From the UHGV virus genome UHGV-0234484: DNA of 13,965 bases; one strand, 5' to 3'. The notes beneath the pieces were generated by a model. That model saw only the letters and a list, made by a program, of their open reading frames with translations. It did not search any database and had not been told where the DNA came from. The DNA is from a virus. Position numbers and translations under genes: made by a program. Of this stretch, positions 952 through 5,742 are shown piece after piece (the first letter of the stretch is position 1; each line of letters starts with the position of its first letter).

Positions 952-2034
952 TTAGAACTGATAAACCAGACCTACAGCGACGATGTCGTCGGTATCAATA
1001 CCAGCTGTTTTGGTAAACTTACTATCGTCAATTAAGTTGATTTTGTAATCAACAAAAGTGGACATGTTTTTATTAAAGTAGTAAGTAGCACCGACATCGA
1101 CATACTTGACTAAGTCTCGGTCACCATGAACACCAAGGTCTTTACCTTTTGACTGAAGGTAAGCAACAGATGGACGCAGACCGAAGTCAAACTGATATTG
1201 TGCTACTGCTTCAAAGTTTTGTGCTTTGTTTGCAATATGGTTATTACCAAAAACGGTCATATTCTGAGTTTCAGAATATGTGGTAGCCAGATAGATATTG
1301 TTCGCATCATATTTCAGGCCTGCAGCCCATACTTCCGCATTTTTGCCGGAGGCATTGAATTTGCTCTTACCATAGGCGACCTGACCGTCAGTGCGATCTG
1401 ATTTAGCATAGGTTGCACCCACGCCGAATCCTTCATACTCATAAGTAGTGGAGAAACCGAAACCATCACCATTGGCTTCAGTTACGTCAGTGCGGTCATT
1501 TTTACCCTGATACTGAGCAGCAAAGTTCAGGCCATCGACCAGACCAAAGAAGTCGTTGTTACGATAAGTTGCAACACCAGTAGTGCGACCAGTCATGAAC
1601 ACATCTGTTTGGGTCCAGGTATCACCACCGAATTCTGGCAGGACGTCAGTCCACGCACCGATGTCGTATGCTACACCGTAGTTACGGCCGTAATCGATTG
1701 AGCCGTAATCACCAAATTTCAGGCCTGCAAATGCAAGACGGGTTTTGTCTTTGGAAGAACCTTGAGATTCAGCACGGTTGCCTTTGAATTCATATTCCCA
1801 CTGACCGAAACCAGTCAGTTGATCGTTGATTTGGGTTTCACCTTTGAAGCCAAGACGGGCATAAGTAGTATCACCATCATCTGCATCATTAGAGGAGAAG
1901 TAGTGCTTGGCATTAACTTTCCCGTATAGATCCAGCTTGTTACTGTCTTTATTATAAATTTCAGCTGCCTGAGCAGACATCGCCATCAGTACTGATGCAG
2001 CTACAGCAGAAATTGCCACTGTTAATTTTTTCAT
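952..2034 (-). CDS. nmpC: outer-membrane general porin, OmpC/PhoE family (NmpC / Lc / OmpD-like), intact, 360 aa
   Basis: N-terminal signal peptide [23 protein letters not shown] then AEIYNKD; porin-like composition rich in G, Y, D, N; C-terminal ...VGLVYQF ending in Phe, as in beta-barrel OMPs. Sits between Q and the lysis genes, as nmpC does in DLP12. No IS interruption is visible. Confidence 0.85.
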
Positions 2035-2623: not shown

Positions 2624-2839
2624 ATGAAATCCATGGATAAGTTAACAACGGGTGTCGCCTATGGCACCTCAGCAGGTAGTGCCGGATACTGGTTTTTACA
2701 GCTGCTAGATAAAGTCACGCCCTCACAGTGGGCGGCAATTGGAGTGCTGGGTAGCCTGGTATTTGGCCTGCTGACGTACCTGACAAACCTTTATTTCAAG
2801 ATTAAAGAAGATAAGCGCAAGGCTGCGAGAGGTGGATAA
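2624..2839 (+). CDS. essD: pinholin, phage 21 S21 class, with dual-start motif (Met1 antiholin / Met4 holin), 71 aa
   Basis: Begins MKSMDK (two Met codons three codons apart), then a Gly/Ala-rich TM1 ([15 protein letters not shown]), a second TM ([18 protein letters not shown]) and a charged C-terminus [22 protein letters not shown] Shine-Dalgarno at 2612-2620. Closely matches my memory of S21/EssD. Confidence 0.9.
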
Positions 2840-3336
2840 TGCCTCCATCATTACGAAAAGCTGTTGCTGCTGCTATTGGTGGCGGGGCTATTGCTATAGC
2901 ATCTGTGTTAATCACTGGCCCAAGTGGTAACGATGGTCTGGAAGGTGTGAGACATAATCCTTACAAAGACATAGTTGGTGTATGGACTGTATGTTACGGG
3001 CATACAGGAAAAGACATCATTCCCGGTAAAACGTATACCGAAGCAGAGTGCAAAGCCCTCCTGAATAAAGACCTTGCCACTGTCGCCAGACAAATTAACC
3101 CGTACATCAAAGTCGATATACCGGAAACAACGCGCGGCGCTCTTTACTCGTTCGTCTACAACGTGGGTGCTGGCAATTTCAGAACATCGACGCTTCTTCG
3201 CAAAATCAACCAGGGCGATATCAAAGGCGCATGTGACCAGCTACGTCGCTGGACATACGCTGGCGGTAAGCAATGGAAAGGGCTGATGACTCGCCGTGAG
3301 ATTGAGCGTGAAGTCTGTTTGTGGGGGCAGCAATGA
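2839..3336 (+). CDS. rrrD: SAR endolysin (signal-anchor-release lysozyme, R21 / RrrD-like), 165 aa
   Basis: N-terminal weakly hydrophobic Gly/Ala-rich SAR segment ([20 protein letters not shown]) then a T4-lysozyme-like catalytic region with E-8aa-D-5aa-T spacing ([17 protein letters not shown]). Start ATG overlaps the holin stop (TAATG at 2837-2841). Confidence 0.9.
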
Positions 3337-3797
3337 GCAGGTTAACCGCGATTATCTCCGCTCTGGTTATCTGCATCATCGTCTGTCTGTCATGGGCTGT
3401 TAATCATTACCGTGATAACGCCATTACCTATAAAGAACAGCGCGACAAAAATACCAGAGAACTGAAGCTGGCGAACGCGGCAATTACTGACATGCAGATG
3501 CGTCAGCGTGATGTTGCTGCGCTCGATGCAAAATACACGAAGGAGTTAGCTGATGCGAAAGCTGAAAATGATGCTCTGCGTAATGATGTTGCCGTTGGTC
3601 GTCGTCGGTTGCACATCAAAGCAGTCTGTCAGCCAGTGCGTGAAGCCACCACCGCCTCCGGCGTGGGTAATGCAGCCTCCCCCCGACTTACTGACTCCGC
3701 TGAACGGGATTATTTCACCCTCAGAGAACGAATCGACACAGTGACGAAGCAGGTTGGTTATCTGCAGGAATATGTGAAAAGACAATGCGTTCAGTGA
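3333..3797 (+). CDS. rzpD: i-spanin Rz (inner-membrane spanin subunit)
   Basis: ATG at 3333 overlaps the endolysin TGA (ATGA). N-terminal TM helix ([20 protein letters not shown]) followed by a coiled-coil-like periplasmic domain. The listed ORF start at 3321 is an upstream GTG. Confidence 0.85.
3553..3744 (+). CDS. rzoD: o-spanin Rz1 (outer-membrane lipoprotein), embedded in the +1 frame of Rz
   Basis: Entirely inside Rz in another frame. Lipoprotein signal with lipobox ([14 protein letters not shown]) followed by a proline-rich mature region ([14 protein letters not shown]), the Rz1 hallmark. Confidence 0.85.
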
Positions 3798-3867
3798 CAA
3801 AAAAATCACAATCCGTATCAAAGATGAGTAAAATCTGAACTCATAAACAAATGTTGGATACATATCA

Positions 3868-4425
3868 ATGATACAGGATTGGTTAGATTACCAAAATCTC
3901 GAGACTGCTAAGTCAGCAGCGAGGGCCGCGTGGGAGTCTTTAGAATGGACGAAAATTTCAGCGATTGCCTCTTGGGTTTCTGTAGTGCTCTCTGCAATAA
4001 CCTCAGGCGTAGCTATCTACGCAATGGGTACTTGGAAATCACAAGAGAAAGTAAAAGCTAAACGTGAGATCAAAAAAGCAGCAGGTAAGCTGTATGTAGA
4101 AGTAGGGCTAATGCCACAAATATTCACAAGCAAGAATGTTACTAACGGTCAGGTTGTTTCCAAGTCACCTAATTTTGAAGTGTTGGCTAGCCAAAAAAAT
4201 CAAGGCTATATTGATGAATGGTTAATGCACGAAAAGTTATCGGAACTGTATTTACAGCTCAAATACTTGGGGTATGCCGTAGTTGATGATCTGACTAGCG
4301 CCCAAAAAGATGCGCTAAACGGTTTGGATACACATTTTCAAAATTATTATTCTTACACCGAAAGTAAGGTGAATTTTGAAAAATCTTTAAAGGATTTTTT
4401 GGATAAGATGGACATCTATAAATAG
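3868..4425 (+). CDS. hypothetical membrane-anchored protein, 185 aa, low-GC accessory (moron) gene
   Basis: Clean ORF in lower-GC, AT-rich sequence between the spanins and cos. Predicted single TM segment around residues 29-53 (ISAIASWVSVVLSAITSGVAIYAMG) followed by a Lys-rich stretch and a roughly 130-aa soluble domain. Followed by a terminator. I do not recognise the family. Confidence 0.6.
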   Translation: MIQDWLDYQNLETAKSAARAAWESLEWTKISAIASWVSVVLSAITSGVAIYAMGTWKSQEKVKAKREIKKAAGKLYVEVGLMPQIFTSKNVTNGQVVSKSPNFEVLASQKNQGYIDEWLMHEKLSELYLQLKYLGYAVVDDLTSAQKDALNGLDTHFQNYYSYTESKVNFEKSLKDFLDKMDIYK

Positions 4426-4442
4426 TCAAATCCTATCGGTAA

Positions 4443-4466
4443 GCCGCCTCCGGGCGGTTTTTTATT
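4443..4466 (+). terminator. rho-independent terminator after the 185-aa ORF
   Basis: CCGCC-TCCG-GGCGG stem-loop at 4444-4457 followed by TTTTTTATT, 18 nt after the stop at 4425. Confidence 0.5.
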
Positions 4467-4504
4467 GCCATCACAATGGGCAGGCCCATCGTAACGGCAG
4501 TATC

Positions 4505-4831
4505 TTATATACACCAATGACATCTCTGGATGGTTGGCAGTCCTGTTAGTTGGCCTGCGGTGGACTCGGCCTCGTCAAGCGTAAGAACACATACTTTTTG
4601 GTATCGGCCAGTAGTAAAGCTGGCGTGATTTTTAGGACTGATTAATGGGTTGATTGATTTGCATGAGGCTCGATGAATCCGCGTAAATCTGGCATCACTT
4701 TTTCTGCCTTTCCCGCTGGCCGACTTAAGCAGATTAATAACGAATCCATCGGAATGGGTCGCTAGCCAACTCTTGTACATCGCTTCGCTATCAACATCCT
4801 GTATTTCACTGCTGAAAATAGTAATGCCCAT
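4505..4831 (-). CDS. hypothetical protein, 108 aa, convergent with the 185-aa ORF
   Basis: Minus-strand ORF with ATG at 4829-4831 and TAA at 4505-4507, preceded on its own strand by an AT-rich stretch and GGAAAAAAT before the ATG. Product ends ...QRCHWCI and contains HRASCKS. No recognisable family. It occupies the position where lambda carries bor, but the sequence is unrelated to Bor as I remember it. Confidence 0.45.
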   Translation of the reverse strand: MGITIFSSEIQDVDSEAMYKSWLATHSDGFVINLLKSASGKGRKSDARFTRIHRASCKSINPLISPKNHASFTTGRYQKVCVLTLDEAESTAGQLTGLPTIQRCHWCI

Positions 4832-4989
4832 ATTTTTTCCGTATATGACTAACTGATATGAATATGTATCAGGACTATTTTATGGCAAAACCAGAGTAGA
4901 AGGCCATTGGGTCCGGAGTGTTGATGTGAACAAATTACCCCCCCCTCTAAGTGTAATTGATATGTATTATCATTTTCGGGTCCTTTCCG

Positions 4990-5190
4990 GCGATCCGGAG
5001 CGTTACGGGGCGGAAGGCGCGCGGGTTTTCGCTATTTATGAAAATTTTCCGGTTTAAGGCGTTTCCGTTCTTCTTCGCCGTAACTTAATGTTTTTATTTA
5101 AAACACCCTCTGAAAAGAAAGGAAACGACAGGTGCTGAAAACGAGCTTTTTGGCCTCTGTCGTTTCCTTTCTCTGTTTTTGTCCGTGGAA
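4990..5190 (+). other. cos: cos site (cosQ / cosN / cosB) for terminase-mediated packaging; cosN at about 5008-5019
   Basis: From 5020 onward the sequence (CGCGGGTTTTCGCTATTTATGAAAATTTTCCGGTTTAAGGCGTTTCCGTTCTTCTTCG...) matches my memory of the lambda left end (cosB with R3/I1/R2/R1) almost base for base, up to the nu1 ATG at 5197. The 12 nt just before it read GGGCGGAAGGCG, against lambda cosN GGGCGGCGACCT. Confidence 0.8.
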
Positions 5191-5196
5191 TGAACA

Positions 5197-5716
5197 ATGG
5201 AAGTCAACAAAAAGCAGCTGGCTGACATTTTCGGCGCGAGTATCCGTACCATTCAGAACTGGCAGGAGCAGGGAATGCCCGTTCTGCGGGGTGGTGGCAA
5301 GGGTAATGAAGTGCTTTATGACTCTGCCGCCGCCATAAAATGGTATGCCGAAAGGGATGCTGAAATTGAGAACGAAAAGCTGCGCCGGGAAGTTGAAGAA
5401 CTGCGGCAGGCCAGCGAGACAGATCTCCAGCCAGGGACTATTGAGTACGAACGCCATCGACTTACGCGTGCGCAGGCCGACGCACAGGAGCTGAAAAATG
5501 CCAGAGACTCCGCTGAAGTGGTGGAAACCGCATTCTGTACTTTCGTGCTGTCGCGGATCGCAGGTGAAATTGCCAGTATTCTCGACGGGATCCCCCTGTC
5601 GGTGCAGCGGCGTTTTCCGGAACTGGAAAACCGACATGTTGATTTCCTGAAACGGGATATCATCAAAGCCATGAACAAAGCAGCCGCGCTGGATGAACTG
5701 ATACCGGGGTTGCTGA

Positions 5717-5742
<26 letters not shown>
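5197..5742 (+). CDS. nu1: terminase small subunit Nu1, 181 aa
   Basis: MEVNKKQLADIFGASIRTIQNWQEQGMPVLRGGGKGNEV... corresponds to lambda gpNu1 (winged helix-turn-helix N-terminus) at the same length and the same distance from cos. Confidence 0.95.

What the first reader, a model, noticed from the sequence alone, without database searches (positions are those of the whole stretch)
3868..4425. Uncharacterised low-GC gene for a membrane-anchored 185-aa protein in the lysis-to-cos moron slot
Between the spanins and cos, lambda carries bor on the opposite strand. Here the slot holds a + strand gene of visibly lower GC than its flanks, with what looks like its own AT-rich upstream region and its own terminator at 4443-4466. 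The product has a short cytoplasmic N-terminus, one predicted TM helix and a roughly 130-aa soluble domain that I cannot place in any family. Self-contained, compositionally foreign single genes in prophage accessory slots often encode superinfection exclusion, abortive infection or other lysogenic-conversion functions. This is the best candidate in the window for an undescribed function, but the function itself is pure inference.
Basis: partly seen in the sequence, partly recalled or inferred. Interest (0 to 1): 0.72.

Follow-up and report, generated by a model that had tools for sequence, protein, structure and literature searches.

The report
Orphan membrane-protein moron after prophage lysis genes
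This is a real, horizontally mobile "add-on" gene of a lambda-like prophage that encodes a small inner-membrane protein from an uncharacterised phage family; it has the layout of genes that prophages express to benefit their host, possibly by blocking other phages, but nothing here shows what it does.

Summary
The gene is real: 3868-4425, + strand, 185 aa, dN/dS 0.17-0.24. It lies between Rz (ends 3797) and cos (~5007) of a lambdoid prophage that is 100% identical to E. coli E28. The low GC, the AT-rich spacer, the terminator and the single TM helix are all confirmed.

- Charge bias across the family predicts N-out/C-in, so the helical-bundle domain is cytoplasmic.
- The terminator is a slot boundary shared with other cargo genes, not private to this gene.

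There is no Pfam or NCBIfam match and no informative structural match. The protein does belong to PHROG 6169 (function unknown). The one PADLOC hit (PD-Lambda-6, E=0.0036) fails in 39 of 40 relatives.

About 90 related loci show a mobile moron cassette. It usually sits after the spanin gene, once sits between tail genes, and is always about 10 GC points below its flanks. It often carries a hairpin terminator, a position-conserved promoter-like motif and an RNA hairpin that masks the ribosome-binding site.

The moron reading is well supported. The anti-phage function remains inference (about 0.4). Interest is moderate.

The parts
3321..3797 (+). Rz i-spanin gene, with Rz1 embedded at 3553-3744. 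This is the left border of the cargo slot. Homology among cassette relatives begins in its 3' end.
   Evidence: Pfam Phage_lysis E=4e-52; ORFs; upstream alignment A4.
3798..3867 (+). AT-rich 70-nt spacer (28.6% GC) that travels with the gene.
   Evidence: A spacer of 70-72 nt is kept in L001, L005, L008 and L010.
3805..3834 (+). Sigma-70 promoter-like site: ATCACA (3805-3810), 18-nt spacer, TAAAAT (3829-3834). T1, A2 and T6 of the -10 hexamer are invariant across 7 relatives down to 52% aa identity. The predicted transcription start near 3841 is inferred, not measured.
   Evidence: By itself the match is not better than shuffles (frac>=0.17).
3810..3820 (+). 5' arm (AAUCCGUAUCA) of a long-range RNA pairing with the start-codon region. 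It lies upstream of the -10-like hexamer, so it would be present only in read-through (late) transcripts.
   Evidence: Fold of 3798-3880: -16.6 kcal/mol, z=-3.6, 1 of 200 shuffles as good. Fold of 3841-3880: -2.0, z=+0.8. The same pairing occurs in L002, L010 and L008 but not in L007, L004 or L006.
3869..3880 (+). 3' arm (UGAUACAGGAUU) of that pairing. It covers the UG of the start codon and codons 2-4.
3868..4425 (+). CDS for a 185-aa bitopic inner-membrane protein, a member of PHROG 6169 (unknown function).
3868..3954 (+). Codons 1-29: acidic N-terminal tail, predicted periplasmic. Part of the conserved 'head' of the family (41% mean pairwise identity), but absent or very short in some members.
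3955..4026 (+). Codons 30-53: the single transmembrane helix (ISAIASWVSVVLSAITSGVAIYAM), 50% Gly/Ala/Ser/Thr.
4027..4116 (+). Codons 54-83: basic juxtamembrane helix holding the family's most conserved motif (W56, Q59, E60 ... M82-P83). Predicted to lie at the cytoplasmic face.
4117..4422 (+). Codons 84-185: helices that, packed against the C-terminal end of the long 2-79 helix, form the helical bundle, predicted cytoplasmic. This is the variable part of the family (10-20% pairwise identity, with indels).
4441..4466 (+). Intrinsic terminator (AAGCCGCC-TCCG-GGCGGTTT plus T run). It is the right border of the slot and is shared with other cargo genes.
   Evidence: A similar hairpin follows 31 of 56 distinct family variants.

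Best explanation
The gene is the cargo of a moron cassette, a mobile add-on transcription unit inserted in the late operon of a lambdoid prophage between Rz and cos.

Shown:
- It is a conserved coding gene.
- The cassette is compositionally foreign and moves among Enterobacterales prophages as a unit: 3' end of Rz, spacer, ORF, terminator.
- The product belongs to PHROG 6169.
- The product has one TM helix, a conserved N-tail/TM/basic juxtamembrane 'head', and a fast-diverging helical bundle.

Inferred:
- Topology is N-out/C-in, which puts the bundle in the cytoplasm.
- The gene is transcribed in the lysogen from its own weak sigma-70 promoter (-10 at 3829-3834).
- Late read-through transcripts carry an extra upstream segment that pairs with the translation start. 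In most relatives the pairing is with the Shine-Dalgarno sequence. If so, the protein is made mainly from the prophage-state transcript. This is the same logic as IS10 'fold-back inhibition' (from my own knowledge, not checked here).

Most likely function (inference only): a prophage-expressed inner-membrane protein that protects the lysogen against other phages. It would act from the cytoplasmic face of the membrane, either by blocking genome entry or, like SieB, by aborting development. The conserved head would be the membrane module and the variable bundle the specificity domain.
For: Real gene: dN/dS 0.17-0.24.

Moron features:
- GC 39.1% against 49-59% in the neighbours. All 55 of 55 distinct family variants are lower than their flanks, mean -10.2 points.
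- Homology among relatives starts in the Rz 3' end and stops right after the terminator.
- An intrinsic terminator is present. 31 of 56 distinct variants have one within 0-73 nt of the stop, and several are bracketed by terminators on both sides.
- The same slot holds other cargo genes in E. coli C4 and FHI_NMBU_03.

Mobility:
- The gene is found behind lysozyme-type and GH19-type lysis cassettes, and in front of Nu1/A, HNH+Terminase_4, DUF1441+GpA and Terminase_2/3 packaging modules.
- In L068 it lies between the tail-tube gene and the G/T/tape-measure genes, with hairpins on both sides.
- In L011 a copy follows a KilA-N gene.

Link to temperate phages: about 90 IMG/VR contigs carry it, but only one phage (deposited as two records) of 50,697 phage records and no plasmid.

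Regulation:
- T-A---T of the -10-like hexamer is invariant in 7 relatives.
- In 25 of 54 distinct variants the best promoter-like match ends 22-27 nt before the ATG.
- The SD-masking hairpin is a family trait. SD paired probability exceeds 0.7 in 74% of 43 family 5' regions, against 15% of 158 neighbouring genes and 11% of shuffles, with compensatory changes.
- The window's read-through RNA folds at -16.6 kcal/mol (z=-3.6), against -2.0 for an RNA starting after the -10.

Topology: 31 K+R on the N side of the TM against 150 on the C side.

Conserved head with variable tail. A relative has the same head and 5' module but a beta-sandwich C-domain.

Precedent: morons are defined by deviating GC, their own promoter and their own terminator. 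HK97 gp15 is an inner-membrane moron protein that excludes phages (PMC3594210).
Against: - No expression, topology or phenotype data exist.
- In the window the promoter-like site is weak (9 of 12 matches, no better than shuffles), and no transcription start is known.
- There is no terminator between Rz and the gene, so it will also be transcribed late.
- The fold-back pairing in the window's own subfamily is significant only in the window and its nearest relative. It is lost in L007, L004 and L006.
- The abundant Salmonella variants have no downstream terminator and sit 50 nt before an HNH gene. Those copies look embedded in the late operon.
- No defence-family match generalises.
- A cytoplasmic domain is not what the known entry-blockers have; for example Cor acts at the FhuA outer-membrane receptor (PMC3594210).
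- The structural matches are generic helical bundles.
Confidence: 0.4

Rival explanations
1. It is a lysogenic-conversion moron unrelated to phage defence. In this reading the prophage-expressed inner-membrane protein changes host envelope physiology, stress tolerance or colonisation, as Bor and Lom do for lambda.
For: All the moron evidence applies equally. Lambda's own occupant of this slot, bor, is a host-fitness gene rather than a defence gene (PMC7067206). No defence model matches.
Against: The family is rare and patchy: 2-9 of 5,426 complete E. coli genomes per variant. Its cytoplasmic domain diverges quickly and is even swapped. That pattern suits an arms-race function better than a housekeeping-like host function. 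There is no signal peptide or lipobox and no predicted surface-exposed domain.
Confidence: 0.25
2. It is a late-expressed accessory of the lysis cassette, for example an antiholin-like or lysis-timing regulator, or a factor acting at or after lysis. It would be transcribed from pR' together with S, R and Rz.
For: In most of the ~95 crude locus maps the gene follows the spanin ORF on the same strand, 35-260 nt downstream. There is no terminator between Rz and the gene in the window. The TM is rich in Gly/Ala/Ser/Thr (50%, family mean 45%), which is reminiscent of SAR or holin helices (from my own knowledge).
Against: It occurs outside lysis cassettes, in the tail slot in L068 and after KilA-N in L011. 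Several variants have a terminator between the spanin and the gene. It goes with unrelated lysis types. It is absent from nearly all sequenced lambdoid phages. GC is about 10 points below the lysis genes. No Pfam holin or lysis family matches. The hairpins that mask the SD or the start codon would, if anything, lower translation from late transcripts.
Confidence: 0.15
3. It is a selfish, toxin-like membrane protein whose translation is kept low by 5' RNA structure. It would serve cassette or prophage retention (addiction) rather than host benefit.
For: SD or start-codon sequestration is typical of toxic small membrane proteins (from my own knowledge), and it is a family trait here. The product is a membrane protein with a weakly hydrophobic TM.
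Against: At 185 aa with a folded domain it is far larger than type I toxins. No antisense RNA or antitoxin partner is conserved next to it; the neighbours differ between loci. Purifying selection acts on the whole protein.
Confidence: 0.07
4. It is a distant homologue of PD-lambda-6, the single 131-aa gene of unknown mechanism that protected E. coli against lambda-vir in the Vassallo et al. screen.
For: The PADLOC model PDLC04020 hits residues 33-105 at E=0.0036. A PHROG model of the same length (phrog_36733, 131 positions) hits the same stretch at E=0.083. PD-lambda-6 is a validated one-gene system annotated 'hypothetical' (PMC9519451 supplement).
Against: Only 1 of 40 family members reaches E<=0.01 against that model. 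The aligned stretch is the TM plus a lysine-rich helix, which is prone to composition-driven matches. The lengths differ (185 vs 131 aa). The PD-lambda-6 sequence itself was not available for a direct comparison.
Confidence: 0.05

Closest known systems
Moron elements of lambdoid phages (HK97 gene 15 as the type case; Juhala et al. 2000; Cumby et al. 2012, PMC3594210)
   Same: A single gene inserted between conserved late genes. Its GC deviates from the neighbours. It is flanked by promoter-like and terminator elements and is mobile between phages. The product is a small inner-membrane protein. A family member (L068) sits in the tail operon next to the chaperone and tape-measure genes, as gene 15 does in HK97.
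   Different: There is no sequence relationship to gp15/YebO (hhalign probability 0.1%). The protein is three times larger and has a folded, predicted cytoplasmic domain. Expression from the prophage and exclusion activity are untested. The terminator is a shared slot boundary rather than a private element.
Lambda/P22 SieB (superinfection exclusion B, an Abi-like membrane protein)
   Same: Similar size (184 aa). Similar architecture: N-terminal membrane anchor, a basic juxtamembrane stretch, and a C-terminal domain of about 100 aa on the cytoplasmic side. It is prophage-encoded.
   Different: No homology (hhalign probability 0.2%; no Pfam SieB hit). SieB has two hydrophobic segments and lies in the early-left region, not the late operon.
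PD-lambda-6 (PADLOC PDLC04020; Vassallo et al. 2022, PMC9519451)
   Same: A single small 'hypothetical' E. coli gene. There is a weak model hit over the TM and juxtamembrane helix (E=0.0036).
   Different: The hit is not reproduced in 39 of 40 relatives. The lengths differ (131 vs 185 aa). The mechanism of PD-lambda-6 is itself unknown.
Lambda bor, the usual occupant of the Rz-to-cos slot
   Same: It occupies the same accessory slot and is an accessory gene expressed in the lysogen (PMC7067206).
   Different: bor is on the opposite strand and encodes an outer-membrane lipoprotein. There is no similarity, and no signal peptide or lipobox here.
IS10/IS50 'fold-back inhibition' of read-through transcripts (from my own knowledge)
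   Same: An upstream segment that is present only in transcripts coming from outside pairs with the translation start, while the element's own transcript starts downstream of that segment.
   Different: Here the arrangement is only predicted from sequence. The transcription start is unknown, and the pairing is not conserved in all close relatives.

Membership tests
Moron (independent add-on transcription unit in a prophage) | An extra gene inserted between genes that are adjacent or differently filled in related phages | tested here: met
   The same flanks hold a 66-aa gene in E. coli C4, two other genes in FHI_NMBU_03 and bor in lambda. Cassette homology is bounded by the Rz 3' end and the terminator.
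Moron (independent add-on transcription unit in a prophage) | [quoted passage not shown] | tested here: met
   39.1% against 49-59% in the neighbours. 55 of 55 distinct family variants are below their flanks, mean -10.2 points.
Moron (independent add-on transcription unit in a prophage) | Own terminator | tested here: met
   Hairpin 4441-4460 plus T run. 31 of 56 variants have one. Caveat: the hairpin is shared with other cargo genes in the same slot.
Moron (independent add-on transcription unit in a prophage) | Own promoter | tested here: inconclusive
   ATCACA-18-TAAAAT at 3805-3834, with invariant T-A---T in 7 relatives. The family-wide -10-like hexamer sits at a fixed distance from the ATG in 25 of 54 variants. 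The window site scores no better than shuffles, and no transcription-start data exist.
Moron (independent add-on transcription unit in a prophage) | Expressed from the repressed prophage | not testable with these tools
   This needs RNA-seq or 5'-end mapping in the lysogen.
PHROG 6169 (phage protein family, unknown function) | Significant full-length match to the family HMM | tested here: met
   E=9.8e-14 over residues 26-180 against profile positions 6-159 of 165. 40 of 40 relatives match, best 6.8e-56.
PD-Lambda-6 (PADLOC PDLC04020) | Significant match to the system's HMM, shared by relatives | tested here: not met
   E=0.0036, partial (profile positions 6-74 of 131). Only 1 of 40 family members reaches E<=0.01.
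PD-Lambda-6 (PADLOC PDLC04020) | Protects against lambda-vir when cloned with its native promoter | not testable with these tools
   This is an experimental criterion (PMC9519451).
SieB (Pfam PF14163; lambda NP_597779) | Sequence or profile similarity to SieB | tested here: not met
   No Pfam hit at E<=1. hhalign of A2 against lambda SieB gives probability 0.2%.
HK97 gp15 / YebO | Sequence or profile similarity to gp15 | tested here: not met
   hhalign probability 0.1%.
Holins, antiholins and spanins (Pfam lysis families) | Match to a holin or lysis family model | tested here: not met
   No such hit at E<=1 for this protein. The neighbouring holin, lysozyme and Rz match strongly in the same call.
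Holins, antiholins and spanins (Pfam lysis families) | Obligatory linkage to a lysis cassette | tested here: not met
   The L068 copy lies between the tail-tube and tape-measure genes. An L011 copy follows KilA-N.
DUF4760 (label that UniRef gives some 161-162-aa relatives) | Match to Pfam DUF4760 | tested here: not met
   The label was seen. No DUF4760 hit for 40 relatives at E<=0.1, nor for the labelled proteins themselves at E<=10, with the Pfam copy at hand.

The most novel reading that the evidence does not exclude
PHROG 6169 and its head-sharing relatives would form an unrecognised modular superfamily of single-gene prophage defence proteins. A conserved N-tail/TM/juxtamembrane 'head' would be fused to swappable cytoplasmic sensor domains (helical bundle or beta-sandwich). 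The gene would be carried on a moron cassette whose 5' RNA structure allows translation from the prophage-state transcript but masks the ribosome-binding site or start codon in late read-through transcripts. The protein would then be made in the lysogen and kept silent during the phage's own lytic growth.
Probability: 0.2. Interest if true: 0.7.

Novelty: new member of a known kind. Interest (0 to 1): 0.45.

Why it matters
Prophage accessory slots are a main reservoir of undiscovered anti-phage and host-fitness genes. This work turns an isolated 'hypothetical protein' into a defined family with several usable features:
- about 50 representatives at 50% identity, all in Enterobacterales prophages;
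- clear cassette boundaries;
- a predicted topology;
- a conserved membrane head with a variable cytoplasmic domain;
- a conserved 5' regulatory module.

If the transcript-origin-dependent masking of the translation start is real, it would explain how a moron sitting inside a strongly transcribed late operon avoids being expressed at the wrong time. The same design could then be searched for in other morons. If the protein has no phage phenotype, it is one more orphan moron, which is ordinary.

Tried and rejected
- Pfam, NCBIfam and PADLOC scans of the protein gave nothing usable except the marginal PD-Lambda-6 hit. That hit was rejected after scanning 40 relatives.
- PDB sequence search gave no hit below E=0.03.
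- The 'DUF4760' label was not reproducible.
- SieB and HK97 gp15 homology were rejected by hhalign.
- A search of GTDB species genomes with the close subfamily found nothing. The alignment of the wide family was too diverse to seed a locus search.
- Plasmids gave no hit.
- Rfam and tRNA scans of the window found nothing.
- The inverted repeat ATGAGT/ACTCAT around the -10 hexamer (3824-3844) was considered as an operator. It was dropped because it is not conserved in L007 or L008.
- The minus-strand ORF 4505-4831 was considered as a partner gene. It was rejected because it occurs without the candidate in other strains, and the candidate's relatives have other neighbours.
- The PD-lambda-6 sequence could not be retrieved for a direct comparison.
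Full report
CONTEXT

The window is the late region of a lambdoid prophage. It is 100% identical to the E. coli E28 chromosome over the part I queried (3700-4900). The gene order is as follows:
- the end of a DUF968 gene;
- the QuuD antiterminator (365-763);
- an OmpC-like porin on the minus strand (952-2034);
- a phage-21-type holin (2624-2839);
- a lysozyme (2839-3336);
- Rz (3321-3797), with Rz1 embedded at 3553-3744;
- the candidate (3868-4425);
- an unannotated minus-strand ORF (4505-4831);
- cos;
- Nu1 (5197-5742), large terminase, portal and the rest of the head genes.

I placed cos at about 5007/5008 by alignment to the lambda cos junction (92.7% identity over 357 nt). The gene therefore does lie in the Rz-to-cos slot. 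In lambda that slot holds bor on the opposite strand.

THE OBSERVATION

- The ORF is as described: + strand, ATG start, 185 aa.
- RefSeq calls it a hypothetical protein (WP_137472414.1).
- It is under purifying selection. dN/dS is 0.17-0.24 at dS 0.34-0.52 against the Citrobacter and Rahnella copies, so it is a real gene.
- Its GC is 39.1%. The lysis genes are 48.6-50.7%, the packaging genes 53-59% and the whole window 52%.
- The 70-nt spacer after Rz is 28.6% GC.
- A GC-rich hairpin with a T run lies at 4441-4466. As RNA it folds at -16 kcal/mol, z=-3.0.
- The protein has one hydrophobic helix at about residues 30-53 and no second candidate.
- AlphaFold2 on an 11-sequence alignment gives a confident all-alpha model (pLDDT 84). 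One long helix (2-79) runs through the membrane, and its C-terminal end packs with the following helices into a helical bundle.

TWO CORRECTIONS

First, topology. Across 40 family representatives, the 15 residues before the TM hold 31 Lys+Arg and 51 Asp+Glu. The 15 residues after it hold 150 Lys+Arg. By the positive-inside rule the short acidic N-tail is periplasmic and the bundle is cytoplasmic. It is a prediction, not a measurement.

Second, the terminator is not private to the gene. In E. coli C4 an Rz gene (81% identical) is followed by an unrelated 66-aa ORF. After that ORF come the same hairpin and right flank, 98.1% identical over 860 nt and starting exactly at window 4441. In strain FHI_NMBU_03 the same right flank follows two other genes. 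The hairpin is a boundary of a cargo slot.

FAMILY

- Pfam and NCBIfam give nothing.
- The protein matches PHROG 6169, a family of unknown function (E=9.8e-14, nearly full length).
- Among 5.8 billion clustered proteins only 12 clusters are close relatives, from E. coli, Citrobacter, Klebsiella, Enterobacter and Rahnella.
- An exhaustive profile search of 1.84 billion representatives finds 47 proteins, mostly 137-196 aa.
- All 40 that I aligned match PHROG 6169.
- The gene is rare. Only 2 of 5,426 complete E. coli genomes hold it (a third, C4, matches only through the flanks), and another family variant occurs in 9. It is always annotated 'hypothetical'.
- The PADLOC hit to PD-Lambda-6 (E=0.0036, residues 33-105) is not reproduced by any of the other 39 members. 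It covers the TM and a lysine-rich helix. I do not accept it as homology.
- PD-lambda-6 is a single 131-aa 'hypothetical' gene, validated against lambda-vir, with no known mechanism (PMC9519451 supplement). I could not get its sequence.
- The UniRef label 'DUF4760' on some relatives is not reproduced with the Pfam copy at hand.
- hhalign against lambda SieB and HK97 gp15 gives probabilities of 0.2% and 0.1%.

SYNTENY AND MOBILITY

I collected 84 further loci (80 from IMG/VR, 4 from GTDB genomes). Together with the contigs of close relatives and Salmonella phage 118970_sal3, these gave crude gene maps. I annotated representative neighbours with Pfam.

In the great majority the gene lies on the late strand, 35-260 nt after the spanin ORF and before the packaging module. 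The surrounding modules differ, however:
- Lysis modules: Phage_lysozyme or GH19 endolysins, and different holins.
- Packaging modules: Nu1/A, HNH+Terminase_4, DUF1441+GpA, or Terminase_2/3.

Among close relatives, DNA homology begins in the last ~60 nt of Rz, runs through the spacer and the ORF, and stops right after the terminator. Beyond that point each locus continues differently.

The gene is not tied to lysis. In L068 it lies between a tail-tube gene (Phage_tail_3, E=9e-44) and the G/T/tape-measure genes, with hairpins on both sides. In L011/L019 there are two paralogues, one of them after a KilA-N gene.

In all 55 distinct variants the gene's GC is below its flanks (mean -10.2 points). 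31 of 56 variants have a strong hairpin plus T run within 0-73 nt of the stop, and several have another one upstream.

The family occurs in only one phage (two records) of 50,697 deposited phage genomes, and in no plasmid.

These are the defining traits of a moron as stated in PMC3594210: deviating GC, own promoter and terminator, and horizontal spread.

REGULATORY SIGNALS

In the window, the consensus scan finds ATCACA-18-TAAAAT at 3805-3834. It is weak and no better than shuffles. Even so, T1, A2 and T6 of the -10 hexamer are invariant in seven relatives down to 52% protein identity.

In the wider family the picture is clearer.
- In 25 of 54 distinct variants the best promoter-like match (GTGnCn-17-TAnAAT) ends 22-27 nt before the ATG.
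- The -10-like hexamer directly abuts an inverted repeat whose 3' arm is the Shine-Dalgarno sequence. Examples are CACCTC/GAGGTG, AGCCC/GGGCT, ATTCCCTT/AAGGGAAT and ATCCTCAT/ATGAGGAT, with compensatory changes.
- The SD paired probability exceeds 0.7 in 74% of 43 distinct family 5' regions. The figure is 15% for 158 neighbouring phage genes and 11% for shuffles (Mann-Whitney p=4e-10; the sequences are related, so this overstates independence).
- A transcript starting the usual 6-8 nt after that -10 would lack the anti-SD arm. For L011 the fold drops from -11.2 to -1.4 kcal/mol.

The window's own subfamily lacks a strong SD hairpin (-1.8 kcal/mol). However, the full spacer RNA (3798-3880) folds at -16.6 kcal/mol (z=-3.6, 1 of 200 shuffles as good). 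It does so by pairing AAUCCGUAUCA (3810-3820, upstream of the -10) with UGAUACAGGAUU (3869-3880, the start codon and codons 2-4). An RNA beginning at 3841 folds at only -2.0. The same pairing exists in L002, L010 and L008 but not in L007, L004 or L006.

My reading is an inference. Read-through late transcripts would mask the translation start, and transcripts from the cassette's own promoter would not. This is the logic known as fold-back inhibition in IS10 (from my own knowledge; a literature search did not retrieve the original paper).

PROTEIN ANATOMY

The conserved part is the N-tail, the TM and the basic juxtamembrane helix. These show 33-41% mean pairwise identity, with near-invariant A49, A52, W56, Q59, E60 and P83. 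The bundle is far more variable (10-20% identity, with indels at residues 84-120). The TM is 50% Gly/Ala/Ser/Thr.

A 179-aa protein in the same slot of strain FHI_NMBU_03 shares the head (HMM E=3e-17) and the same 5' module, but it carries an unrelated C-terminal domain. Its family is another orphan. The predicted fold of that domain is an Ig/ApaG-like beta-sandwich. The head is therefore a module that is combined with different cytoplasmic domains.

MECHANISM

Shown: this is a mobile, compositionally foreign single-gene cassette encoding a bitopic membrane protein of an uncharacterised phage family.

Inferred:
- expression from the prophage;
- N-out/C-in topology;
- translational gating by transcript origin;
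- a role in protecting the lysogen from other phages at the cytoplasmic face of the inner membrane. The conserved head would be the membrane module and the variable bundle the specificity domain.

I give this about 0.4. The rivals are:
- a non-defence lysogenic-conversion function (0.25);
- a late lysis accessory (0.15), weakened by the tail-slot copy, the upstream terminators and the GC gap;
- a toxin-like selfish element (0.07);
- PD-lambda-6 homology (0.05).

VERDICT

The moron interpretation is well supported by comparative evidence. The functional interpretation is untested. This is a new member of a known kind, a moron encoding a membrane protein. It has one feature that is worth testing: the conserved 5' structure placed exactly where it would distinguish the cassette's own transcripts from read-through transcripts. 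Interest is 0.45.

Noticed in passing
window 4505-4831 (- strand): A 108-aa ORF converges on the candidate, in the position where lambda has bor. RefSeq does not annotate it in E28 or E300082. It has protein homologues of 53-99% identity in 8 clusters from Citrobacter, Yersinia, Salmonella and Leclercia. It has no Pfam, PHROG, PADLOC or NCBIfam match. A promoter-like site lies upstream on the minus strand at 4888-4861. It is probably a second, independent orphan cargo gene. It occurs without the candidate in at least 6 other E. coli genomes.
   Followed up: partly
L011-L094 (for example L011:5900-5949, L018, L020, L051, L068:5912-5994) and L098:2461-2556: A 5' module travels with the wider family. 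It has three parts: an element of about 45 nt (AGGCATTACAGCAGGCATTCACTGAGTGCCTGTGATAATGC, containing direct and inverted repeats); a -35/-10-like pair at a fixed distance from the ATG; and an SD-masking hairpin with compensatory changes. The upstream repeat element could be a regulator binding site. I did not study it.
   Followed up: partly
[not shown]
   Followed up: partly
window 4441-4469; L003:5358 onward; many family loci: The hairpin CCGCC-TNNG-GGCGG plus a T run recurs nearly unchanged after, and sometimes before, very different cargo genes in many lambdoid prophages. It behaves as a conserved junction of the cargo slot and may be a recombination linker as well as a terminator.
   Followed up: partly
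L003:5151-5351 (E. coli C4): A different 66-aa cargo gene (MTKIYAKIVSHPSGNLTF...) occupies the same Rz-to-terminator slot. RefSeq does not annotate it there, and it has no Pfam match.
   Followed up: partly
L011 and L019: 3785-4306 and 5941-6501: Two diverged paralogues of the family lie 1.6 kb apart in one Enterobacter prophage. Each has its own downstream hairpin terminator, and the first follows a KilA-N gene.
   Followed up: no
window 952-2034 (- strand) and 2035-2620: An OmpC-like porin gene (360 aa) lies on the opposite strand between Q and the holin. It is followed by a very AT-rich stretch (27-34% GC at about 1950-2550). This is another accessory slot of the same prophage.
   Followed up: no
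window ~5008-5019: The predicted cohesive end GGGCGGAAGGCG differs from lambda's GGGCGGCGACCT at 5 of 12 positions, although the surrounding cos region is 92.7% identical.
   Followed up: no
L002:5633-6098 (E. coli E300082): In this strain Rz and Rz1 are annotated as broken pseudogenes, while the candidate gene next to them is intact (98% DNA identity to the window).
   Followed up: no
L006:4278-5673 and L008:3998-4925: Prophages carrying relatives of the candidate hold other accessory systems between Q and the lysis genes. L006 has a KwaA-domain (Kiwa-like) gene pair and L008 has a HicA/HicB toxin-antitoxin pair.
   Followed up: no
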